The notes below the pieces were generated by a model that did not search any database, was not told the DNA's origin, and worked only from the letters and a program-made list of their open reading frames with translations. The translations under genes and the position numbers were made by a program. A stretch of DNA of 9,230 bases from a virus. Taxonomy: Duplodnaviria > Heunggongvirae > Uroviricota > Caudoviricetes. The stretch lies in the IMG/VR virus record IMGVR_UViG_2582580966_000002; one strand, 5' to 3'. The stretch's first letter is position 1; every line of letters begins with the position of its first letter. Positions 13 through 5,841 of this stretch are shown here, one piece after another.

Positions 13-1296
13 CTATGATATGCGCTGAAATAATCCTGCCTGTCTGATACCCGGAGATGATGTCCATAGCATCGGACCACATGCACGCCACGTGCCCGGT
101 AAACGGGTCTCCCCCACATTACCGGAAGCAACCAGGGGAGTACCATCCGAAAGGCAACATGCAGACAGTGATGAGCCGGCAATGGCTGAGCCCGGTGCCA
201 TATCCCCCGAATAACTCGTCGCATAATATGCCGCAAGGACAAAAGAACCGACACCAAACAGTCCGCTGTCAGGACTTCCTGACGGTCCCTGAGGTCCTGC
301 CGGACCTGCGGCTCCCGTATCTCCTTTTGGCCCCTGAGGCCCTGCCTGACCTGCGGCTCCCGTATCCCCTTTTGGCCCCTGTGGTCCTGCCGGGCCTGCA
401 GCTCCCGTATCTCCCTTTGGCCCCTGAGGTCCTGCCGGACCTGCGGCTCCCGTATCTCCTTTTGGCCCCTGAGGTCCTGCCGGACCTGCGGCTCCCGTAT
501 CTCCTTTTGGCCCCTGAGGTCCTGCCGGGCCTGCAGCTCCCGTATCTCCCTTTGGCCCCTGAGGTCCTGCCGGACCTGCGGCTCCCGTATCTCCTTTTGG
601 CCCCTGAGGCCCTGCCTGACCTGCGGCTCCCGTATCCCCTTTTGGCCCCTGAGGCCCTGCCGGGCCTGCGGCTCCCGTATCCCCTTTTGGCCCCTGAAGC
701 CCTGCCGGGCCTGTATCCCCCTTGTCGCCCTTCGGTCCCAGTGGTCCGCCCGGATCGCCCTGCTCACCTTTCGGACCTGTATCCCCCTTATCGCCCTTGT
801 CACCTTTATCCCCTTTCGGCCCCGGTGGCCCTGCCGGGCCTGTATCGCCCTTGTCCCCCTTCTGTCCCTGTGGACCAGTTGCTCCGGTGTCGCCTTTCAG
901 TCCCTGTGGCCCCACGGCAGTTTCGGCTTTCTCAGCAGCTTCTCGCGCCCTGCGCACAGCCTCATCCGCCGCCGCTTCCAGCTTCTTCAGTGCATCAGGA
1001 TAATACGCTGCATCCGTTTCACGGAGCAGAAAGGCATTCAGGGTGCCCGGTTCGTCGTCGGCCATGACATCAATCTCGCCGGCGCATGCCGGCTGACGAC
1101 CTTCCACGCACAAGGTCACACGATAACGCCCCGGCTCAACCTGCATGCTGTAACTGCCCGTTTCGCCTGGCTGGTGCTCTGCCACCGTGGTGACTATCAC
1201 CGTCTCACTCGTTCGCGTGGCTTTCAGCTCTATGGTGCAGTCCGGTACCGGTTTTCCTGTACCATCCTTCAGCACACCTGAAATCTGTACTGACAT
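13..1296 (-). CDS. stf: Side tail fibre protein: lambda Stf-like N-terminal domain (~110 aa), collagen-like Gly-X-Y repeat region (~210 aa), short C-terminal domain (~90 aa)
   Basis: The N-terminus [43 protein letters not shown]... resembles lambda Stf ([26 protein letters not shown]...). It is followed by uninterrupted GXY triplets ([15 protein letters not shown]...). ATG at 1296-1294 verified; stop TAG at 13-15. Confidence 0.8.
286..690. repeat. Tandem array of nine 45-bp repeats (consensus cccctgaggtcctgccggacctgcggctcccgtatctccttttgg), each encoding a 15-aa collagen-like unit of the tail fibre
   Basis: Copies at 286, 331, 376, 421, 466, 511, 556, 601 and 646, read directly from the sequence. 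Copies 4, 5 and 7 are identical; copy 2 equals copy 8; copies 3 and 6 differ from each other by one base. More degenerate 9-bp Gly-X-Y periodicity continues to about 910. Confidence 0.95.
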
Positions 1297-2069
1297 ATTC
1301 CCCCCACAAAAAAGCCCACCAGAACCGGCGGGCTGTCATAACTCTGTGTTACCTGGCTATGGTAGTTCACCGTCATCTGCTGACCACCAAACTGCTCCGC
1401 ATCCACCTGCATCCCCACAATGGCCGTGTTCGGGTAGCACTGTTTCACATCGATGATTTCGGTGTATGACGACCACAGCGTTCTGTTCTGCAGCTGGTCC
1501 GTGGTGCTGTCCGCCGTCTCCCTGACCATCCGGATGTTAAAGGGGCGGGGAGGCAGATTATCCAGAATCACCGAGGCCAGGAACTGTGAGGTGGTCTTGC
1601 CGTTAATGGTGACATCCTTTTCTGTCACCCAGTTACCGTTACGCTGTAACTGAATCAGCAGACGGACAGAGGACGGATTACGGTCACCCTTTGACGTGGT
1701 CTCCACCAGTGACTGCACCCCGAAGGTCACCCGCAGGCGGTCAATGTTCGCTGACGTAATGGTGCGTGTTACCGGTTTTGCCCTGGTCACTTCGACACCC
1801 AGTACAGTTTCAGAGCCGGAGGACTCAAAGCCTTCCGGTGGTGTCTGCTCCTGCTCCCCGGCACGCCAGACCGCGGTCACACCGTGTATCACGGGATTAC
1901 CGTCCGTGTCCGTCAGCGGGGTTTTGTTCACCAGAATACTCTGCAGGCTTTTCACCGGGCCTTCTATCGGTCCCTCACCAATCGCATCAATCACGCTCAT
2001 CATCTGCGTGGATTTGAGATTGTCTTTCGCCTCACGAGGCGTGTGTGCCTTACCGCCACCTTTTCCCAT
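1269..2069 (-). pseudogene. J: Tail tip / host-specificity protein gpJ, N-terminal fragment only (~237 native codons of ~1130), then 29 codons of non-J sequence
   Basis: MGKGGGKAHTPREAKDNLKSTQMMSVIDAIGEGPIEGP...NLPPRPFNIRM...CYPNTAIVGMQVDAEQFGGQQ matches the lambda gpJ N-terminus. The remaining reading frame crosses the stf terminator and start codon and stops at 1269-1271. The ATG at 2069 is preceded by GGGAAGG. Confidence 0.85.
1308..1334 (-). terminator. Intrinsic terminator immediately upstream of the stf start (minus-strand stem AGCCCGCC/GGTGGGCT, loop GGTTCT, T6 tract)
   Basis: Minus-strand sequence agcccgccggttctggtgggctttttt read off the reverse complement of 1308-1334. The stem is 8 bp including one G-U pair. 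It is followed by GTGGGGGGAAT and the stf ATG. Confidence 0.55.
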
Positions 2070-2172
2070 ACAGCCTTCCCCTGAATAAATTAACCGCCAC
2101 TTGCCATTCCGTACAGAAGTCGGATATCCTTCGCCCGAAAAGCATGAAACACATTTCTGCCATGCTAAAGAG

Positions 2173-2202
2173 AAACCCCGGTATCAGCAGATACCGGGGT
2201 TT
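2173..2202. terminator. Bidirectional intrinsic terminator-like hairpin: perfect 12-bp stem AAACCCCGGTAT/ATACCGGGGTTT, 6-nt loop CAGCAG
   Basis: Perfect inverted repeat at 2173-2184 and 2191-2202. It is followed by TCTTTC on the plus strand and by TTTCTCTTT on the minus strand, so it could terminate in both directions. Confidence 0.6.
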
Positions 2203-2274
2203 TCTTTCATGCCCACCGATAATCCTGTTGGTTAAAACCGGTAATGGCATAAAAATTCTGAATATCTTCACATT

Positions 2275-2302
2275 TTCACAAACTGACCGTGGCGCGTATA
2301 AT
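2275..2302 (+). promoter_or_regulatory. Sigma70-type promoter: -35 TTCACA (2275-2280), 16-bp spacer, -10 TATAAT (2297-2302); AT-rich UP-like tract upstream (2246-2268)
   Basis: Hexamers read directly from the sequence: a perfect consensus -10 and a 5/6 match at -35. Predicted transcription start around 2309-2311. Confidence 0.6.
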
Positions 2303-2308
2303 TTCTCT

Positions 2309-2405
2309 GCGTTAATTTTTTTTTCGTGATATAAGAATAATTCCTTACACTTAATCTTCGTAACTCTCCCGCAGTTCCTGTCCGCGATCACTGCGGGATT
2401 TTTTT
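2309..2405 (+). ncRNA. Candidate small non-coding RNA (~95 nt) from the promoter at 2275-2302 to the terminator at 2367-2405
   Basis: Strong promoter and intrinsic terminator about 100 bp apart on the same strand. The interval has no plausible ORF (only GTG-ATA-TAA), is AU-rich, and ends in a hairpin plus U-tail, as Hfq-dependent sRNAs typically do. It runs opposite to all flanking phage genes. Confidence 0.45.
2367..2405 (+). terminator. Intrinsic terminator: 9-bp perfect stem TCCCGCAGT/ACTGCGGGA (2367-2375 / 2390-2398), 14-nt loop, T7 tract 2399-2405
   Basis: Read directly from the sequence. The T-tract is only on the plus-strand side, so it is unidirectional. The loop is longer than in typical terminators. 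Confidence 0.6.
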
Positions 2406-2412
2406 ATTCTTT

Positions 2413-3042
2413 TTACCCCTGCCGCCCGATAACCACGACCTTTCCGCCCCCGCCTTCATCACGGGTGCTGATGTCCTGGGATATACGGCGGGAGCCAACC
2501 AGCATTTCCCCGTAAGGCACCGGCATCGGGTTCCCCTGGGCAATCATGTTATCCAGCGAGGAAAAGTACGTGTTCTGTCTGCCGTTATCCGTTGCGCGGT
2601 AATCCGGTGTTTTTGCCTTCGGGGCCAGCATCTGGGCCACACCGCCCAGTATCATGCTGGCACCCAGTGAAAACAGCATCGTGGTGGCAGAAAAACCACC
2701 GGCACTCAGGGCTGTACCCCATAACGCCATCGAGCCTCCGGCCGTGAAGAAAGAGCCCACGATGGCTGCCGCCCCCAACACAATCTGCAGTCCACCCTTT
2801 CCGGCCCCGGCCAGTCGCGGCACAATGTGGATGACCGTTCCCTCACCCAGCTGTTCGTGAAGGCGGGCGTACACCACCTCCGGTGCCGTGTCTTCACCGG
2901 CAATACGTATCTGGTACCAGCCTTCGTTCATCTGAAGGCGAAAGCCCGGCATCTGCATCGACAGGGCGCGAATGGCTTCCGCTGCCGTGTTCACATACAG
3001 GCTGAGGCGGCGGCCAAATCGTTGTAAATCCCCGTGGTTGCC
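2413..3042 (-). pseudogene. I: Tail assembly protein gpI lacking its native N-terminus (~20 codons) and start codon
   Basis: ORF 2413..3078: ...GDLQRFGRRLSLYVNTAAEAIRAL...QNTYFSSLDNMIAQGN...GGGKVVVIGRQG matches lambda gpI from about residue 21 to the end. The first 15 residues of the track ORF (MMVEAVISGSTVGNH) are FII DNA in another frame. Confidence 0.85.
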
Positions 3043-3364
3043 CACGGTTGAGCCAGAGATAACAGCTTCCACCATCATCCGGCGAAACCCGGTCTATCCA
3101 GAAGTTTTCCTCACCGATGGTCAGCGTGTCTCCACGCCGCAGTTGCCGCACATCATCAGTCCGGACAAACAGGGACGGGCTGGAGCCTTCAACGCGCACG
3201 CCCTGTCCGGCATAGCTGATATTTTCAGGGTCATCAAAAACACCACGTATTACTGCGCCGGACTGCTCACCGGATGTCATGGTGGCTGACGTTCCCATGT
3301 ACCCGCGTATCGTTTCATCGGCGCGGGCAATGGCAGCATCGAACAGGTTATCGAAATCAGCCAC
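2894..3364 (-). pseudogene. FII: Head-tail connector gpFII with altered C-terminus: native residues 1 to ~108, then read-through into I-derived DNA in the wrong frame (48 foreign residues)
   Basis: ORF begins MADFDNLFDAAIARADETIRGYMGTSAT...DRVSPDDGGSCYLWLNRG, matching lambda gpFII (117 aa) up to about residue 108; the following sequence QPRGFTTIWPPPQPV... is not FII. Junction lies near 3037-3042. Confidence 0.8.
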
Positions 3365-5226: not shown

Positions 5227-5235
5227 AAACATCCC

Positions 5236-5841
5236 TTACACTGGTGTGTTCAGCAAATCGTTAACGGCATCAGATGCCAGGTTACCTGCAGCCAGCGGTG
5301 CCGGTGCCCCCTGCATCAGACGATCCAGCGCAGTATCACTGCGCGCCTGTGCACTCTGTGGTGCTGCGGCCAGAATGCGGCGGGCCGTTTCCACGGTCAT
5401 ACCGGGGGGTTCTGCCAGCACGCGGGCCTGTTCTTCGCGTCCGTGAGCCTCCTCACAGTTGAGGATCCCCATAATGCGGCTGTTTTCTGCCGCAACCGCA
5501 GCGTTGATCTGCGCGTTCACGTCCGGCTGCGCCGCGCTGGCGTTTTCGCCCTCCATCGCTGGCACCACGCCAGTAACGTCAGCCTGCGAAGCAGTGGCTG
5601 AAACAGTTGTTGATTGAGTCTCTTTGGTCATTCGCCCTCCTGAGAGACGGGATTTACGTGCATCCAGTGCATCACGCATGATGGTGATCGCATCGGTACT
5701 GTTAACAAGTTCATCAGCCAGTCCGGCATCAATGGCCTCCTGACCGCTGTACACTGCAGCCTCGGTATCCAGCACAGCCTGCACGGACAGGCCGGTATAT
5801 GCCGACACCTTCTGTGCAAACATCCGGCGGGTTGCATCCAT
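5236..5841 (-). CDS. Nu3: Scaffolding protein Nu3, in-frame internal start within C
   Basis: ATG at 5841-5839 (verified on the sequence) begins MDATRRMFAQKVSAYTGLSVQ... in the C frame; 201 codons to the shared stop, as for lambda Nu3. Confidence 0.75.
   Translation of the reverse strand: MDATRRMFAQKVSAYTGLSVQAVLDTEAAVYSGQEAIDAGLADELVNSTDAITIMRDALDARKSRLSGGRMTKETQSTTVSATASQADVTGVVPAMEGENASAAQPDVNAQINAAVAAENSRIMGILNCEEAHGREEQARVLAEPPGMTVETARRILAAAPQSAQARSDTALDRLMQGAPAPLAAGNLASDAVNDLLNTPV

What the first reader, a model, noticed from the sequence alone, without database searches (positions are those of the whole stretch)
2070..2412. About 340-bp insert between I and J carrying a self-contained promoter-to-terminator unit: candidate prophage-encoded sRNA moron
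As I recall, lambda has only about 60 bp between I and J; here there are 343 bp. The insert contains a near-consensus sigma70 promoter on the strand opposite to every phage gene (TTCACA, 16 bp, TATAAT) with an AT-rich UP-like tract, then about 95 nt of AU-rich sequence with no ORF, ending in a hairpin with a U7 tail. That is the architecture of an autonomously expressed, Hfq-type small RNA carried as a moron. Its promoter would stay active in a lysogen, where the late operon is silent, so it could regulate host genes. I cannot name it from sequence alone; it may or may not correspond to a known prophage sRNA family.
Basis: partly seen in the sequence, partly recalled or inferred. Interest (0 to 1): 0.75.

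Follow-up and report, generated by a model that had tools for sequence, protein, structure and literature searches.

The report
PasB-family prophage small RNA gene
The insert between tail genes I and J is a real small-RNA gene with its own promoter and terminator, but it belongs to a family already detected by experiment (PasB in EPEC, EcOnc22/23/24 in EHEC), so it is an unannotated variant of a known regulator and not a new one.

Summary
There is a 343-bp I-J spacer at 2070-2412, against 60 bp in lambda. On the + strand it carries the only 11-of-12 sigma-70 promoter match in the 9.2-kb window (TTCACA-16-TATAAT, 2275-2302). An ORF-free, AU-rich stretch follows, then a terminator hairpin (2367-2398) and a U7 tail (2399-2405).

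The interpretation also holds, and the RNA can be named. PasB of EPEC E2348/69 (83 nt, Northern-validated, Hfq-stabilised, 37 RIL-seq partners) lies in the same I-J spacer, on the strand opposite the tail genes. It has the same promoter hexamers and an identical terminator 3' half. EcOnc22/23/24 of EHEC Sakai (Hfq-CRAC, ~85 nt, destabilised without Hfq) occupy the same position in prophages Sp15, Sp14 and Sp11.

A covariance model built only from those other alleles finds window 2303-2405 at 69 bits (E about 6e-15). About a third of complete E. coli genomes (1780 of 5426) carry a family member. None of the 50 hits listed is annotated, and Rfam has no model.

The window allele is one base from the commonest allele. 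It is only about 72% identical to the PasB that was studied, and it differs in the proposed seed. The published 5' ends map to about 2324, not to the promoter-predicted 2309. Targets and function remain unknown. The host prophage is a deletion remnant. Verdict: real and correctly read, but already known; low to moderate interest.

The parts
2249..2274 (+). AT-rich tract upstream of the -35 hexamer (possible UP element)
   Evidence: Read directly from the sequence. Largely conserved across the 44 alleles. The promoter block 2249-2302 is 93% identical to the PasB locus of E2348/69. UP-element function is inferred, not tested.
2275..2280 (+). -35 hexamer TTCACA
   Evidence: Identical in E2348/69 PP6. 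Part of the 24-mer used to fetch the IMG/VR loci, so its invariance in that set is by construction. It is not kept in the Sakai copies, which have TTCCGG.
2297..2302 (+). -10 hexamer TATAAT, 16 bp after the -35
   Evidence: the only 11/12 promoter match in the window. Other alleles have TATAAT, AATAAT or GATAAT at this position.
2309..2405 (+). Predicted primary transcript (about 97 nt) if transcription starts 7 nt after the -10
   Evidence: Inferred from the promoter geometry. The 5' leader GCGUUAAU plus a U-run (2309-2324) is conserved among alleles, 86% identical to E2348/69 over 2303-2324. No transcription start site data were available.
2324..2405 (+). Stretch homologous to mature PasB (83 nt in E2348/69), about 82 nt here
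   Evidence: The published PasB coordinates NC_011601 1466343..1466261, mapped through alignment A1, give window 2324-2405. The Sakai Hfq-CRAC clusters, after the shift between record versions that I inferred, also begin just after the U-run.
2341..2361 (+). Partly conserved single-stranded core UUCCUUACACUUAAUCUUCGU, the putative seed, containing a CU-rich anti-Shine-Dalgarno-like motif
   Evidence: This is the most conserved block of the RNA body (UCCUU..AC..UU.AUCUU) across alleles. It is unpaired in the centroid fold of the mature form. Zhu et al. [quoted passage not shown] It is 67% identical to E2348/69 PasB.
2367..2398 (+). Rho-independent terminator hairpin
   Evidence: The stem CCCGCAG/CUGCGGG is the same in nearly all alleles, while the loop varies in length and sequence. 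The PasB Northern probe lies on its 3' half, matching 20 of 23 nt here.
2399..2405 (+). U7 tail (3' end, expected Hfq proximal-face binding site)
   Evidence: RIL-seq lists a longest U tract of 7 for PasB. Alleles carry U6 to U8.
2174..2206 (.). Strong GC-rich hairpin flanked by an A-run and a T-run, terminator-like in both directions, upstream of the sRNA promoter. Its role is unexplained.
   Evidence: Folds at -28.7 kcal/mol (+ strand) and -29.9 kcal/mol (- strand), z = -7.4 and -6.5. Lambda and E2348/69 PP6 have a hairpin plus T-run, oriented with the late operon, at the same place before J.
2070..2173 (.). Left part of the spacer, present only in the long (~333-341 bp) class. It includes the ribosome-binding site of J on the - strand.
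   Evidence: Spacer lengths fall into two groups. This part has no counterpart in E2348/69. No convincing ORF.
2413..2994 (-). Tail assembly gene I (the listed ORF 2413-3078 runs further upstream across a deletion junction)
   Evidence: Pfam Lambda_tail_I. Colinear at 97% with the I gene of an intact prophage. Called as a 193-aa product in the same contig.
1269..2069 (-). Truncated J (N-terminal fragment, 266 aa) fused to the sequence upstream of stf
   Evidence: Pfam FNIII-A_GpJ. Only the first ~715 nt of J align with the intact prophage.

Best explanation
Window 2275-2405 (+) is a gene for a PasB-family small RNA, known as PasB in EPEC and EcOnc22/23/24 in EHEC. It is a stand-alone transcription unit inserted between the stop codon of tail gene I and the hairpin that precedes J, and it points against the late operon.

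A near-consensus sigma-70 promoter drives it independently of the phage late promoter, so it can be made in a lysogen. Transcription ends at an intrinsic terminator with a U7 tail. The stable RNA is about 82 nt (2324-2405). It is either cut out of a ~97-nt primary transcript that starts near 2309, or it starts after the U-run.

The RNA binds Hfq through the terminator and U-tail. It uses the single-stranded, CU-rich core just upstream of the terminator (2341-2361) to pair with mRNAs, mostly host core-genome coding regions and 5'UTRs, and so changes their translation or stability.

Shown for homologues: expression, size, Hfq binding, Hfq-dependent stability, and many mRNA partners.

Shown here: homology, position, and an intact promoter and terminator.

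Inferred: that this allele is expressed and works the same way, where its seed lies, and the direction of regulation. The regulon is unknown, and may differ from that of EPEC PasB because the core differs at 7 of 21 positions.
For: Same locus and strand. PasB lies at NC_011601 1466261-1466343 (-), between tail assembly gene I and gpJ of prophage PP6.

Alignment with E2348/69. Both promoter hexamers are identical, the promoter block is 93% identical, the terminator 3' half plus U-tail is 100% identical, and the body is 37-67% identical.

Probes. The PasB Northern probe maps to window 2380-2402 with 20 of 23 matches. The EcOnc22/23/24 probe and coordinates place those RNAs in the I-J spacers of Sakai Sp15, Sp14 and Sp11.

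Model test. Covariance model R1, built from 14 alleles that are not of the window type, hits window 2303-2405 (+) at 69 bits, E 5.7e-15. The next hits have E of 0.39 or worse.

Intermediate alleles. Mosaic alleles connect the window type and the E2348 type.

Experiments on homologues. PasB has 37 RIL-seq partners, 30 of them CDS or 5'UTR. It is the second RNA in 99-100% of its chimeric fragments, and more than 98% of fragments involve core-genome partners. Its level is log2 -6.8 and -2.4 in the hfq deletion strain, and it was confirmed by Northern blot. EcOnc22 is ~85 nt and listed as 'destabilised', in what I read as the hfq-mutant column.

Distribution and retention. 1780 of 5426 complete E. 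coli genomes carry a family member. The unit is intact, with at most 1 mismatch, in five independently assembled copies of this decayed prophage.
Against: No expression data exist for the window-type allele itself.

It is only 72.5% identical to the studied PasB over 103 nt and differs in the proposed seed. Targets therefore cannot be transferred from PasB.

The experimentally inferred 5' ends lie about 21 nt after the -10 hexamer rather than the usual ~7 nt. Either processing occurs or the obvious promoter is not the one used.

The terminator stem never varies, so covariation gives no support for the structure.

No regulatory outcome on any target has been reported for any family member.
Confidence: 0.88

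Rival explanations
1. The RNA acts mainly in cis or against phages. It is perfectly complementary to the I-J spacer of the late polycistronic mRNA. It could pair with late transcripts of its own prophage after induction, or of superinfecting relatives that carry the same spacer. That could trigger cleavage or reduce J expression, giving a brake on tail production or a form of exclusion.
For: The gene lies antisense to the late operon, 7 nt from the I stop codon. The arrangement is kept in every locus examined. Many genomes carry several related prophages, with up to 8 copies of the family per genome.
Against: It overlaps no coding sequence or ribosome-binding site; the RBS of J is about 240 nt away. 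In EPEC more than 98% of its chimeric fragments are with core-genome RNAs, and it behaves like a classical trans-acting sRNA, being the second RNA in its chimeras. Those experiments were done without phage induction, so they do not exclude this role. A search of the late-strand RNA of the window for trans sites found nothing better than shuffled controls.
Confidence: 0.12
2. In this particular window the unit is an inert relic. The prophage is a deletion remnant, and the sRNA gene has simply not yet been deleted or mutated. It has no current role in this host.
For: The prophage has lost genes Z to K and most of J plus lom. Sister assemblies show further decay. The window allele carries a private G-to-T change at 2323 that lengthens the U-run; the best match in complete genomes is 99.0%.
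Against: Promoter, core, terminator and U-tail are all intact. The single change lies outside them. The unit is unchanged, with at most 1 mismatch, in five remnant copies whose flanks have decayed to different extents. Zhu et al. report that PasB lies outside recognisable prophage regions more often than the other Pas sRNAs, which fits retention. None of this is a formal test of selection.
Confidence: 0.15
3. The near-consensus promoter is not the one that makes the stable RNA. Transcription instead starts just after the U-run (about 2324-2326) from a weak TAnnnT -10 element (TAATTT, 2313-2318). In that case TTCACA-16-TATAAT serves another purpose or is incidental.
For: Two independent data sets place the 5' end just after the U-run. 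One is the 83-nt PasB annotation from RNA-seq and Northern blotting. The other is the Sakai Hfq-CRAC clusters, once the shift between record versions is allowed for. A TAnnnT hexamer sits 6-7 nt upstream of that point in all three allele types (read directly).
Against: The alternative has a poor -35 (TGGCGC, 3 of 6) and no extended -10. The strong promoter is conserved far better than the RNA body, 93% against 37-67%, as expected if it is used. 5' ends drawn from read coverage or from crosslink clusters are not mapped start sites, and reads through a 7-9 nt U-run map poorly. Cleavage of an AU-rich 5' leader would give the same picture.
Confidence: 0.2
4. The promoter and terminator are chance matches in ordinary intergenic DNA, and nothing is made from them.
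For: Consensus scans alone are weak evidence. Five promoter-like sites were found in the window against 3.8 expected.
Against: This is the only 11/12 match in the window. It is followed at the right distance by a terminator. The pair is conserved across dozens of alleles. Homologous units give abundant Hfq-bound RNAs in two strains.
Confidence: 0.02

Closest known systems
PasB sRNA of EPEC O127:H6 E2348/69 (Pearl Mizrahi et al. 2021, PMC8550237; distribution study by Zhu, Shabalina and Storz 2026, bioRxiv 10.64898/2026.05.13.724894)
   Same: Same position (I-J spacer of a lambdoid prophage) and same strand (against the tail genes). Identical -35 and -10 hexamers with the same spacing. Identical terminator 3' half and U7 tail. 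Shared core blocks UCCUU and UU.AUCUUC. Similar length.
   Different: The window allele is 72.5% identical over 103 nt. The 5' body, the linker and 7 of 21 core positions differ. The spacer here is 343 bp rather than 240 bp, with an unrelated left part. With the 28-nt BLAST word used for bacterial genomes in the 2026 survey, this allele may not have been picked up: the longest exact stretch it shares with the 83-nt PasB query is 25 nt. That is my inference and was not checked against their tables.
EcOnc22/EcOnc23/EcOnc24 of EHEC O157:H7 Sakai, prophages Sp15 (Stx1), Sp14 and Sp11 (Tree et al. 2014, PMC4104026)
   Same: Same I-J spacer position and strand. Same terminator stem and U7 tail. Shared core UUAAUCUUC. 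Size about 85 nt. Bound by Hfq and listed as 'destabilised', in what I read as the hfq-mutant column.
   Different: The promoter is more diverged (TTCCGG at the -35, AATAAT at the -10). The body and terminator loop differ. Function is listed as unknown. I found no paper among those searched that links EcOnc22-24 to PasB.
AgvB/AsxR anti-sRNA family (EcOnc01-03; Rfam RF02702 and RF02703)
   Same: Prophage-encoded, Hfq-bound short RNAs. They exist as families of alleles with a conserved 3' part and a variable pairing region, at a fixed position in lambdoid prophages.
   Different: They have a different location (downstream of PR', next to the stx or moron site), a different sequence, and are shorter at 51-60 nt. 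They act as sponges of the host sRNAs GcvB and FnrS. No Rfam match was found here.
Classical lambdoid morons such as lom and bor (Juhala et al. 2000, as cited in PMC4104026)
   Same: Extra DNA between conserved late genes with its own promoter and terminator, expressed from the prophage (for the concept; for the anatomy here).
   Different: The product is an RNA, not a protein. The unit points against the operon that flanks it.

Membership tests
PasB / EcOnc22-24 sRNA family | Located in the spacer between tail genes I and J of a lambdoid prophage, on the strand opposite those genes, with its 3' end next to the I stop codon | tested here: met
   In the window the U-tail ends at 2405 and the I stop codon is at 2413-2415. 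The layout is the same in E2348/69 PP6 and in Sakai Sp15, Sp14 and Sp11.
PasB / EcOnc22-24 sRNA family | Sequence and structure homology to the experimentally defined RNAs | tested here: met
   A covariance model built from PasB, its close variants and Sakai EcOnc22, with no window-type sequence, scores window 2303-2405 (+) at 69 bits, E 5.7e-15. blastn gives 72.5% identity over 103 nt, E 3e-6. Intermediate mosaic alleles exist.
PasB / EcOnc22-24 sRNA family | Own sigma-70 promoter immediately upstream | tested here: met
   TTCACA-16-TATAAT, 11/12, with the same hexamers as at the E2348/69 locus. Promoter activity itself was not tested.
PasB / EcOnc22-24 sRNA family | Rho-independent terminator with stem CCCGCAG/CUGCGGG and a U6-U8 tail | tested here: met
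PasB / EcOnc22-24 sRNA family | Expressed as a stable RNA of about 83-85 nt | not testable with these tools
   Shown only for the E2348/69 and Sakai alleles. No transcript data for the window allele.
PasB / EcOnc22-24 sRNA family | Binds Hfq, depends on it for stability, and forms chimeras with many mRNAs | not testable with these tools
   Shown for PasB and EcOnc22. For the window allele it is inferred from the conserved terminator and U7 tail and the U/A-rich body.
Any Rfam 15 family (including AgvB, AsxR, Esr41, STnc100, IsrG, DicF) | Score at or above the family's gathering threshold | tested here: not met
   No match at gathering thresholds anywhere in the window. In the permissive search the best overlapping hits score 17-18 bits against thresholds of 44-100.
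Moron (autonomous insert in the lambdoid late region) | Extra DNA relative to related phages, flanked by its own promoter and terminator | tested here: met
   343 bp against 60 bp in lambda. Promoter and terminator present. Autonomous expression in a lysogen was shown only for homologues.

The most novel reading that the evidence does not exclude
The window-type allele is the commonest form of the family: 612 of 5426 complete E. coli genomes carry it at 99% identity or better, including human and poultry isolates, while 450 have the EPEC PasB type as their best match. It may be a functionally distinct regulator. Its pairing core has diverged, so it could control a different set of host genes from EPEC PasB or EHEC EcOnc22-24. 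It may also have been domesticated, being kept intact while the surrounding prophage decays. If so, the I-J spacer would be a cassette-like site where lambdoid phages exchange sRNA 'specificities' between a fixed promoter and a fixed terminator.
Probability: 0.3. Interest if true: 0.45.

Novelty: already known. Interest (0 to 1): 0.25.

Why it matters
The finding shows that a sequence-only reading can recover a genuine regulatory RNA gene that genome annotation and Rfam both miss. None of the 50 hits listed across two searches carries an annotation, and Rfam has no match.

Three practical points follow. First, PasB of EPEC and EcOnc22/23/24 of EHEC are the same family, a link I did not find stated in the papers searched. 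Second, the family is present in about a third of complete E. coli genomes, and its most frequent allele has never been studied. Third, its 5' end and its targets are unresolved.

None of this changes how prophage sRNAs are understood. The value lies in annotation (an Rfam model could be built) and in choosing which allele to study next.

Tried and rejected
1. Rfam. Both a gathering-threshold search and a permissive search found nothing meaningful.

2. AgvB/AsxR identity, my first recollection. Rejected: those genes sit downstream of PR', not between I and J.

3. Full-text search for the terminator sequence in papers. No hits.

4. A small protein. There is no ATG in the transcript, and the listed ORFs that overlap the unit all begin outside it. 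Rejected.

5. A phage mRNA target in trans. I computed duplex energies of the unstructured sRNA body against the late-strand RNA of the whole window. The best hit on a translation start region is the Shine-Dalgarno region of head gene D (5232-5242, 11 contiguous pairs, -23.8 kcal/mol). Shuffled sRNAs reach equal or better energies (mean best -25.5). Other phages with the same sRNA allele have an unrelated D start region. Rejected as chance.

6. A second sRNA or promoter in the left part of the spacer. There is only a 9/12 promoter-like site at 2101-2130. No promoter-like site on the - strand reached the threshold in 1800-2700. Unresolved, and not pursued further.

7. Covariation support for the terminator. 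The stem is invariant, so this is uninformative.

8. Listing the individual RIL-seq partners of PasB. The table is too large to read within the look-up cap, so only summary counts are used.

9. A 5'-leader/core stem proposed by RNAalifold for the E2348-type alleles. It is not reproduced in the window allele's own fold, so I do not rely on it.
Full report
WHAT IS IN THE SEQUENCE

All sizeable genes of the window lie on the - strand. By Pfam they form a lambda-like late region: terminase large subunit, portal, S49 protease, D, E, FI, FII, an I-like ORF (2413-3078), a 266-aa J-like ORF (1269-2069) and a tail-fibre N-terminal ORF (13-1296).

The stretch between the I stop codon (2413-2415) and the J start codon (2069) is 2070-2412, 343 bp. 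Lambda has 60 bp there, at 15445-15504.

On the + strand the scan finds TTCACA (2275-2280), 16 bp, then TATAAT (2297-2302). This is 11 of 12 matches and the best promoter-like site in the whole 9.2-kb window on either strand.

About 65 nt downstream lies a hairpin, CCCGCAGU (2368-2375) paired with ACUGCGGG (2390-2397). One A and then seven U follow, at 2399-2405.

Between promoter and terminator there is no ATG. The only GTG opens a two-codon frame. The ORFs of 20 aa or more that overlap the unit all begin outside it.

WHAT IT IS

Rfam 15 has no match, either at gathering thresholds or in a permissive search.

DNA searches show that the spacer is common. The 343 bp match 1659 of 5426 complete E. 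coli genomes. The 103-nt transcribed part matches 1780 of them. None of the 50 hits listed in those two searches has an annotated feature under the match.

In an intact prophage that is 99.7% identical over the spacer, the flanking genes are annotated 'tail assembly protein' and 'gpJ'.

The literature supplied the name. Pearl Mizrahi et al. 2021 (PMC8550237) found five prophage sRNAs in EPEC E2348/69 by RIL-seq on Hfq. Their Table S6 places PasB at NC_011601 1466343..1466261 (- strand, 83 nt, prophage PP6) and gives the Northern probe AATCCCGCAGTGATCGCGGAGCT.

In the RefSeq record that interval lies between the tail assembly gene (which ends at 1466255) and gpJ (which starts at 1466496), on the strand opposite both.

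Aligned to the window, the two loci share both promoter hexamers and their spacing. They share the sequence just after the -10, a central block, and the 3' half of the terminator with its U-tail. The reverse complement of the probe falls on window 2380-2402 with 20 of 23 matches. Through the alignment, PasB maps to window 2324-2405.

A second, older data set describes the same family. Tree et al. 2014 (PMC4104026) list EcOnc22 (Sp15), EcOnc23 (Sp14) and EcOnc24 (Sp11) of EHEC Sakai as homologous Hfq-CRAC clusters. EcOnc22 gives a ~85-nt Northern band and is listed as 'destabilised', in a column I read as the hfq-mutant comparison.

All three coordinates fall in spacers between a tail assembly gene and a 'host specificity protein' (J) gene.

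The probe's reverse complement matches the Sakai spacer RNA over 23 contiguous nt. The published coordinates refer to an earlier version of the record. I infer a shift of about 127 nt, the same for all three copies, which puts the clusters on the RNA body just after the U-run.

I found no paper that links EcOnc22-24 with PasB. The 2026 survey of Pas sRNAs does not mention EcOnc names. The only other paper that holds them lists the function as unknown.

MEMBERSHIP TEST

As a test that does not depend on reading alignments by eye, I built a covariance model from 14 alleles that are not of the window type. These were PasB, its near variants, more distant IMG/VR alleles and Sakai EcOnc22.

Scanning the whole window with filters off gives one significant hit, 2303-2405 (+), at 69 bits and E 5.7e-15. 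The next hits have E of 0.39 and 0.71.

Mosaic intermediates between the window type and the E2348 type also exist among 44 distinct alleles collected from viral contigs. Homology is therefore secure.

Hfq binding and expression of this particular allele cannot be tested with these tools.

ANATOMY OF THE FAMILY

Across the alleles, the conserved parts are:
- the promoter region, partly by construction because a 24-mer from it was one of the two search patterns;
- the first ~20 transcribed nucleotides, CUGCGUUA followed by a U-run;
- a central block, UCCUU..AC..UU.AUCUU;
- the terminator stem and U-tail.

The variable parts are the 5' body, the linker before the terminator, and the terminator loop, which ranges from a few nucleotides to about 14.

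Segment identities between the window and E2348/69 are as follows:
- promoter: 93%
- leader: 86%
- 5' body: 62%
- core: 67%
- linker: 37%
- terminator 3' half plus U-tail: 100%

The flanking I and J sequences are 93-94% identical between the same two phages. The RNA body is thus the most diverged part of the neighbourhood, set between fixed expression signals.

Zhu et al. [quoted passage not shown] That corresponds to the conserved block at window 2341-2361. In the window allele this block is unpaired in the centroid fold of the mature form. It contains UUCCUU, which is complementary to Shine-Dalgarno-like AAGGAA. The anti-Shine-Dalgarno reading is my inference.

HOW IT MOST LIKELY WORKS

For PasB the published data show the following:
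- 37 distinct RNA partners, of which 30 are CDS or 5'UTR;
- 258 chimeric fragments in the activating condition and 1820 in the non-activating condition;
- PasB as the second RNA of the chimera in 100% and 98.7% of fragments, the signature of a bona fide sRNA;
- more than 98% of fragments with core-genome partners;
- a longest U tract of 7;
- levels lowered by 6.8 and 2.4 log2 units in the hfq deletion strain;
- Northern confirmation, and higher expression in the non-activating condition.

The best-supported mechanism is therefore a classical Hfq-dependent, trans-acting, base-pairing sRNA. It is transcribed from its own promoter in the lysogen and acts mainly on host mRNAs. No target has been validated and no phenotype reported. 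The window allele's core differs from that of PasB at 7 of 21 positions, so its regulon cannot be read across.

THE 5' END

The promoter predicts a start near 2309 and a ~97-nt RNA. Both experimental data sets point instead to an RNA of about 83-85 nt that begins just after the U-run, at window ~2324.

Either the AU-rich leader is removed, or transcription starts from a weak TAnnnT element within the leader. I favour processing, or imprecise end calling, because the strong promoter is far better conserved than the RNA body. Only 5' RACE or dRNA-seq with exonuclease treatment can decide.

SURROUNDINGS

The window prophage is a remnant. Window 1355-3036 is colinear (97%) with an intact prophage, from the first ~715 nt of J through the spacer and I to the last 42 nt of K. 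Upstream of 3036 the sequence jumps to FII. Downstream of ~1355 it jumps to the region upstream of stf. So genes Z to K, and most of J plus lom, are gone.

No complete E. coli genome has this arrangement. The window is identical to the 9230-bp contig JMGU01000151.1 of assembly GCA_000687025.1. Four other draft assemblies carry the same remnant, two of them with further loss of head genes. In all five the 167-nt sRNA unit has at most one mismatch.

This fits Zhu et al.'s remark that PasB is found outside recognisable prophages more often than the other Pas sRNAs. It is not a formal test of selection.

The rest of the spacer is not explained. A strong hairpin at 2174-2206, flanked by an A-run and a T-run, folds at about -29 kcal/mol on either strand (z = -7.4 and -6.5). 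Lambda's 60-bp spacer and the E2348/69 spacer each have a hairpin followed by a T-run, oriented with the late operon, at the same place before J.

The sRNA unit thus looks like an insertion between the I stop codon and a pre-existing hairpin. Spacers fall into two length classes, about 231-251 bp and about 333-341 bp. The window belongs to the long class, which was the more common in the sample.

DISTRIBUTION

Among species-representative genomes, the exact terminator 24-mer occurs only in Escherichia albertii and in one short contig labelled Streptomyces, which is probably contamination. This agrees with the Escherichia/Shigella restriction reported by Zhu et al..

In complete E. coli genomes the best-hit identity to the window allele is distributed as follows:
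- 99% or more: 612 records
- 95-99%: 38 records
- 90-95%: 588 records (the listed examples include O157:H7 strains)
- 80-90%: 100 records
- 60-80%: 450 records (the listed examples of this band are 72.5% identical)

The window allele itself differs from the commonest allele by one G-to-T change at 2323 in the U-run.

VERDICT

The object is a member of a published, experimentally detected sRNA family, so novelty is 'already known'.

What remains of interest is modest. The family is unannotated and absent from Rfam. Its two published names have apparently not been connected. Its commonest allele, its 5' end and its targets are unstudied.

Noticed in passing
window ~3036 and ~1355-1359: The prophage is a deletion remnant. 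FII is joined to the last 42 nt of K, so genes Z to K are missing. The first ~715 nt of J are joined to the region upstream of stf, so the rest of J and lom are missing. As a result the listed 'I' ORF (2413-3078) and the FII ORF (2894-3364) overlap. No complete E. coli genome shows this arrangement.
   Followed up: partly
L156-L160 (draft assemblies GCA_000704885.1, GCA_000704905.1, GCA_000703845.1, GCA_000704585.1, GCA_000687025.1): The same FII-I-sRNA-J'-stf remnant occurs in five assemblies, and L160 is the window's own contig. In L156 and L157 the head genes are further truncated (capsid E reduced to 62 aa) and the neighbouring genes differ. The 167-nt sRNA unit has at most 1 mismatch in all five.
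   Followed up: partly
window 2174-2206; lambda L161 about 775-800; L002 about 2395-2440: A strong hairpin with an A-run on one side and a T-run on the other lies upstream of the sRNA promoter. Lambda and E2348/69 PP6 also have a terminator-like hairpin, oriented with the late operon, just before J. Its role is unknown; it could be a Q-overridden terminator, an mRNA 3' stabiliser, or an insulator.
   Followed up: partly
Sakai NC_002695.2: L153 about 1340-1427, L154, L155: EcOnc22/23/24 (Tree et al. 2014) are the same family as PasB (Pearl Mizrahi et al. 2021). The published coordinates appear to be offset by about 127 nt from the current RefSeq version. The middle of the published probe differs from the genome sequence by a few bases. 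No paper searched states the link.
   Followed up: yes
L004 (NZ_JBHTEB010000006.1, labelled Streptomyces flavalbus, 3408 bp): A short contig in a Streptomyces assembly carries an E. coli-type I-J spacer with a mosaic PasB allele. It is most likely contamination of that assembly.
   Followed up: no
L126 positions 956-1125: One viral contig has the exact 24-nt promoter-region sequence followed by unrelated sequence instead of the sRNA. This may be a recombination breakpoint inside the promoter.
   Followed up: no
window 5232-5242 (- strand): The Shine-Dalgarno region of head decoration gene D is complementary to the sRNA core over 11 contiguous pairs. The energy is no better than for shuffled sRNAs, and the site is absent from other phages with the same sRNA allele, so it is probably chance.
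   Followed up: yes
window 1313-1334 (- strand): A good intrinsic terminator (9-bp stem followed by TTTTTGTGGG) sits between the J fragment and stf, in sequence that corresponds to the lom-stf intergenic region of the intact prophage.
   Followed up: no
window 307-589 (+ strand coordinates): The same 23-nt motif (TGCGGCTCCCGTATCTCCTTTTG) recurs four times at spacings of 135, 45 and 90 nt. It lies inside the collagen-repeat part of the tail-fibre gene, consistent with internal repeats of that gene.
   Followed up: no
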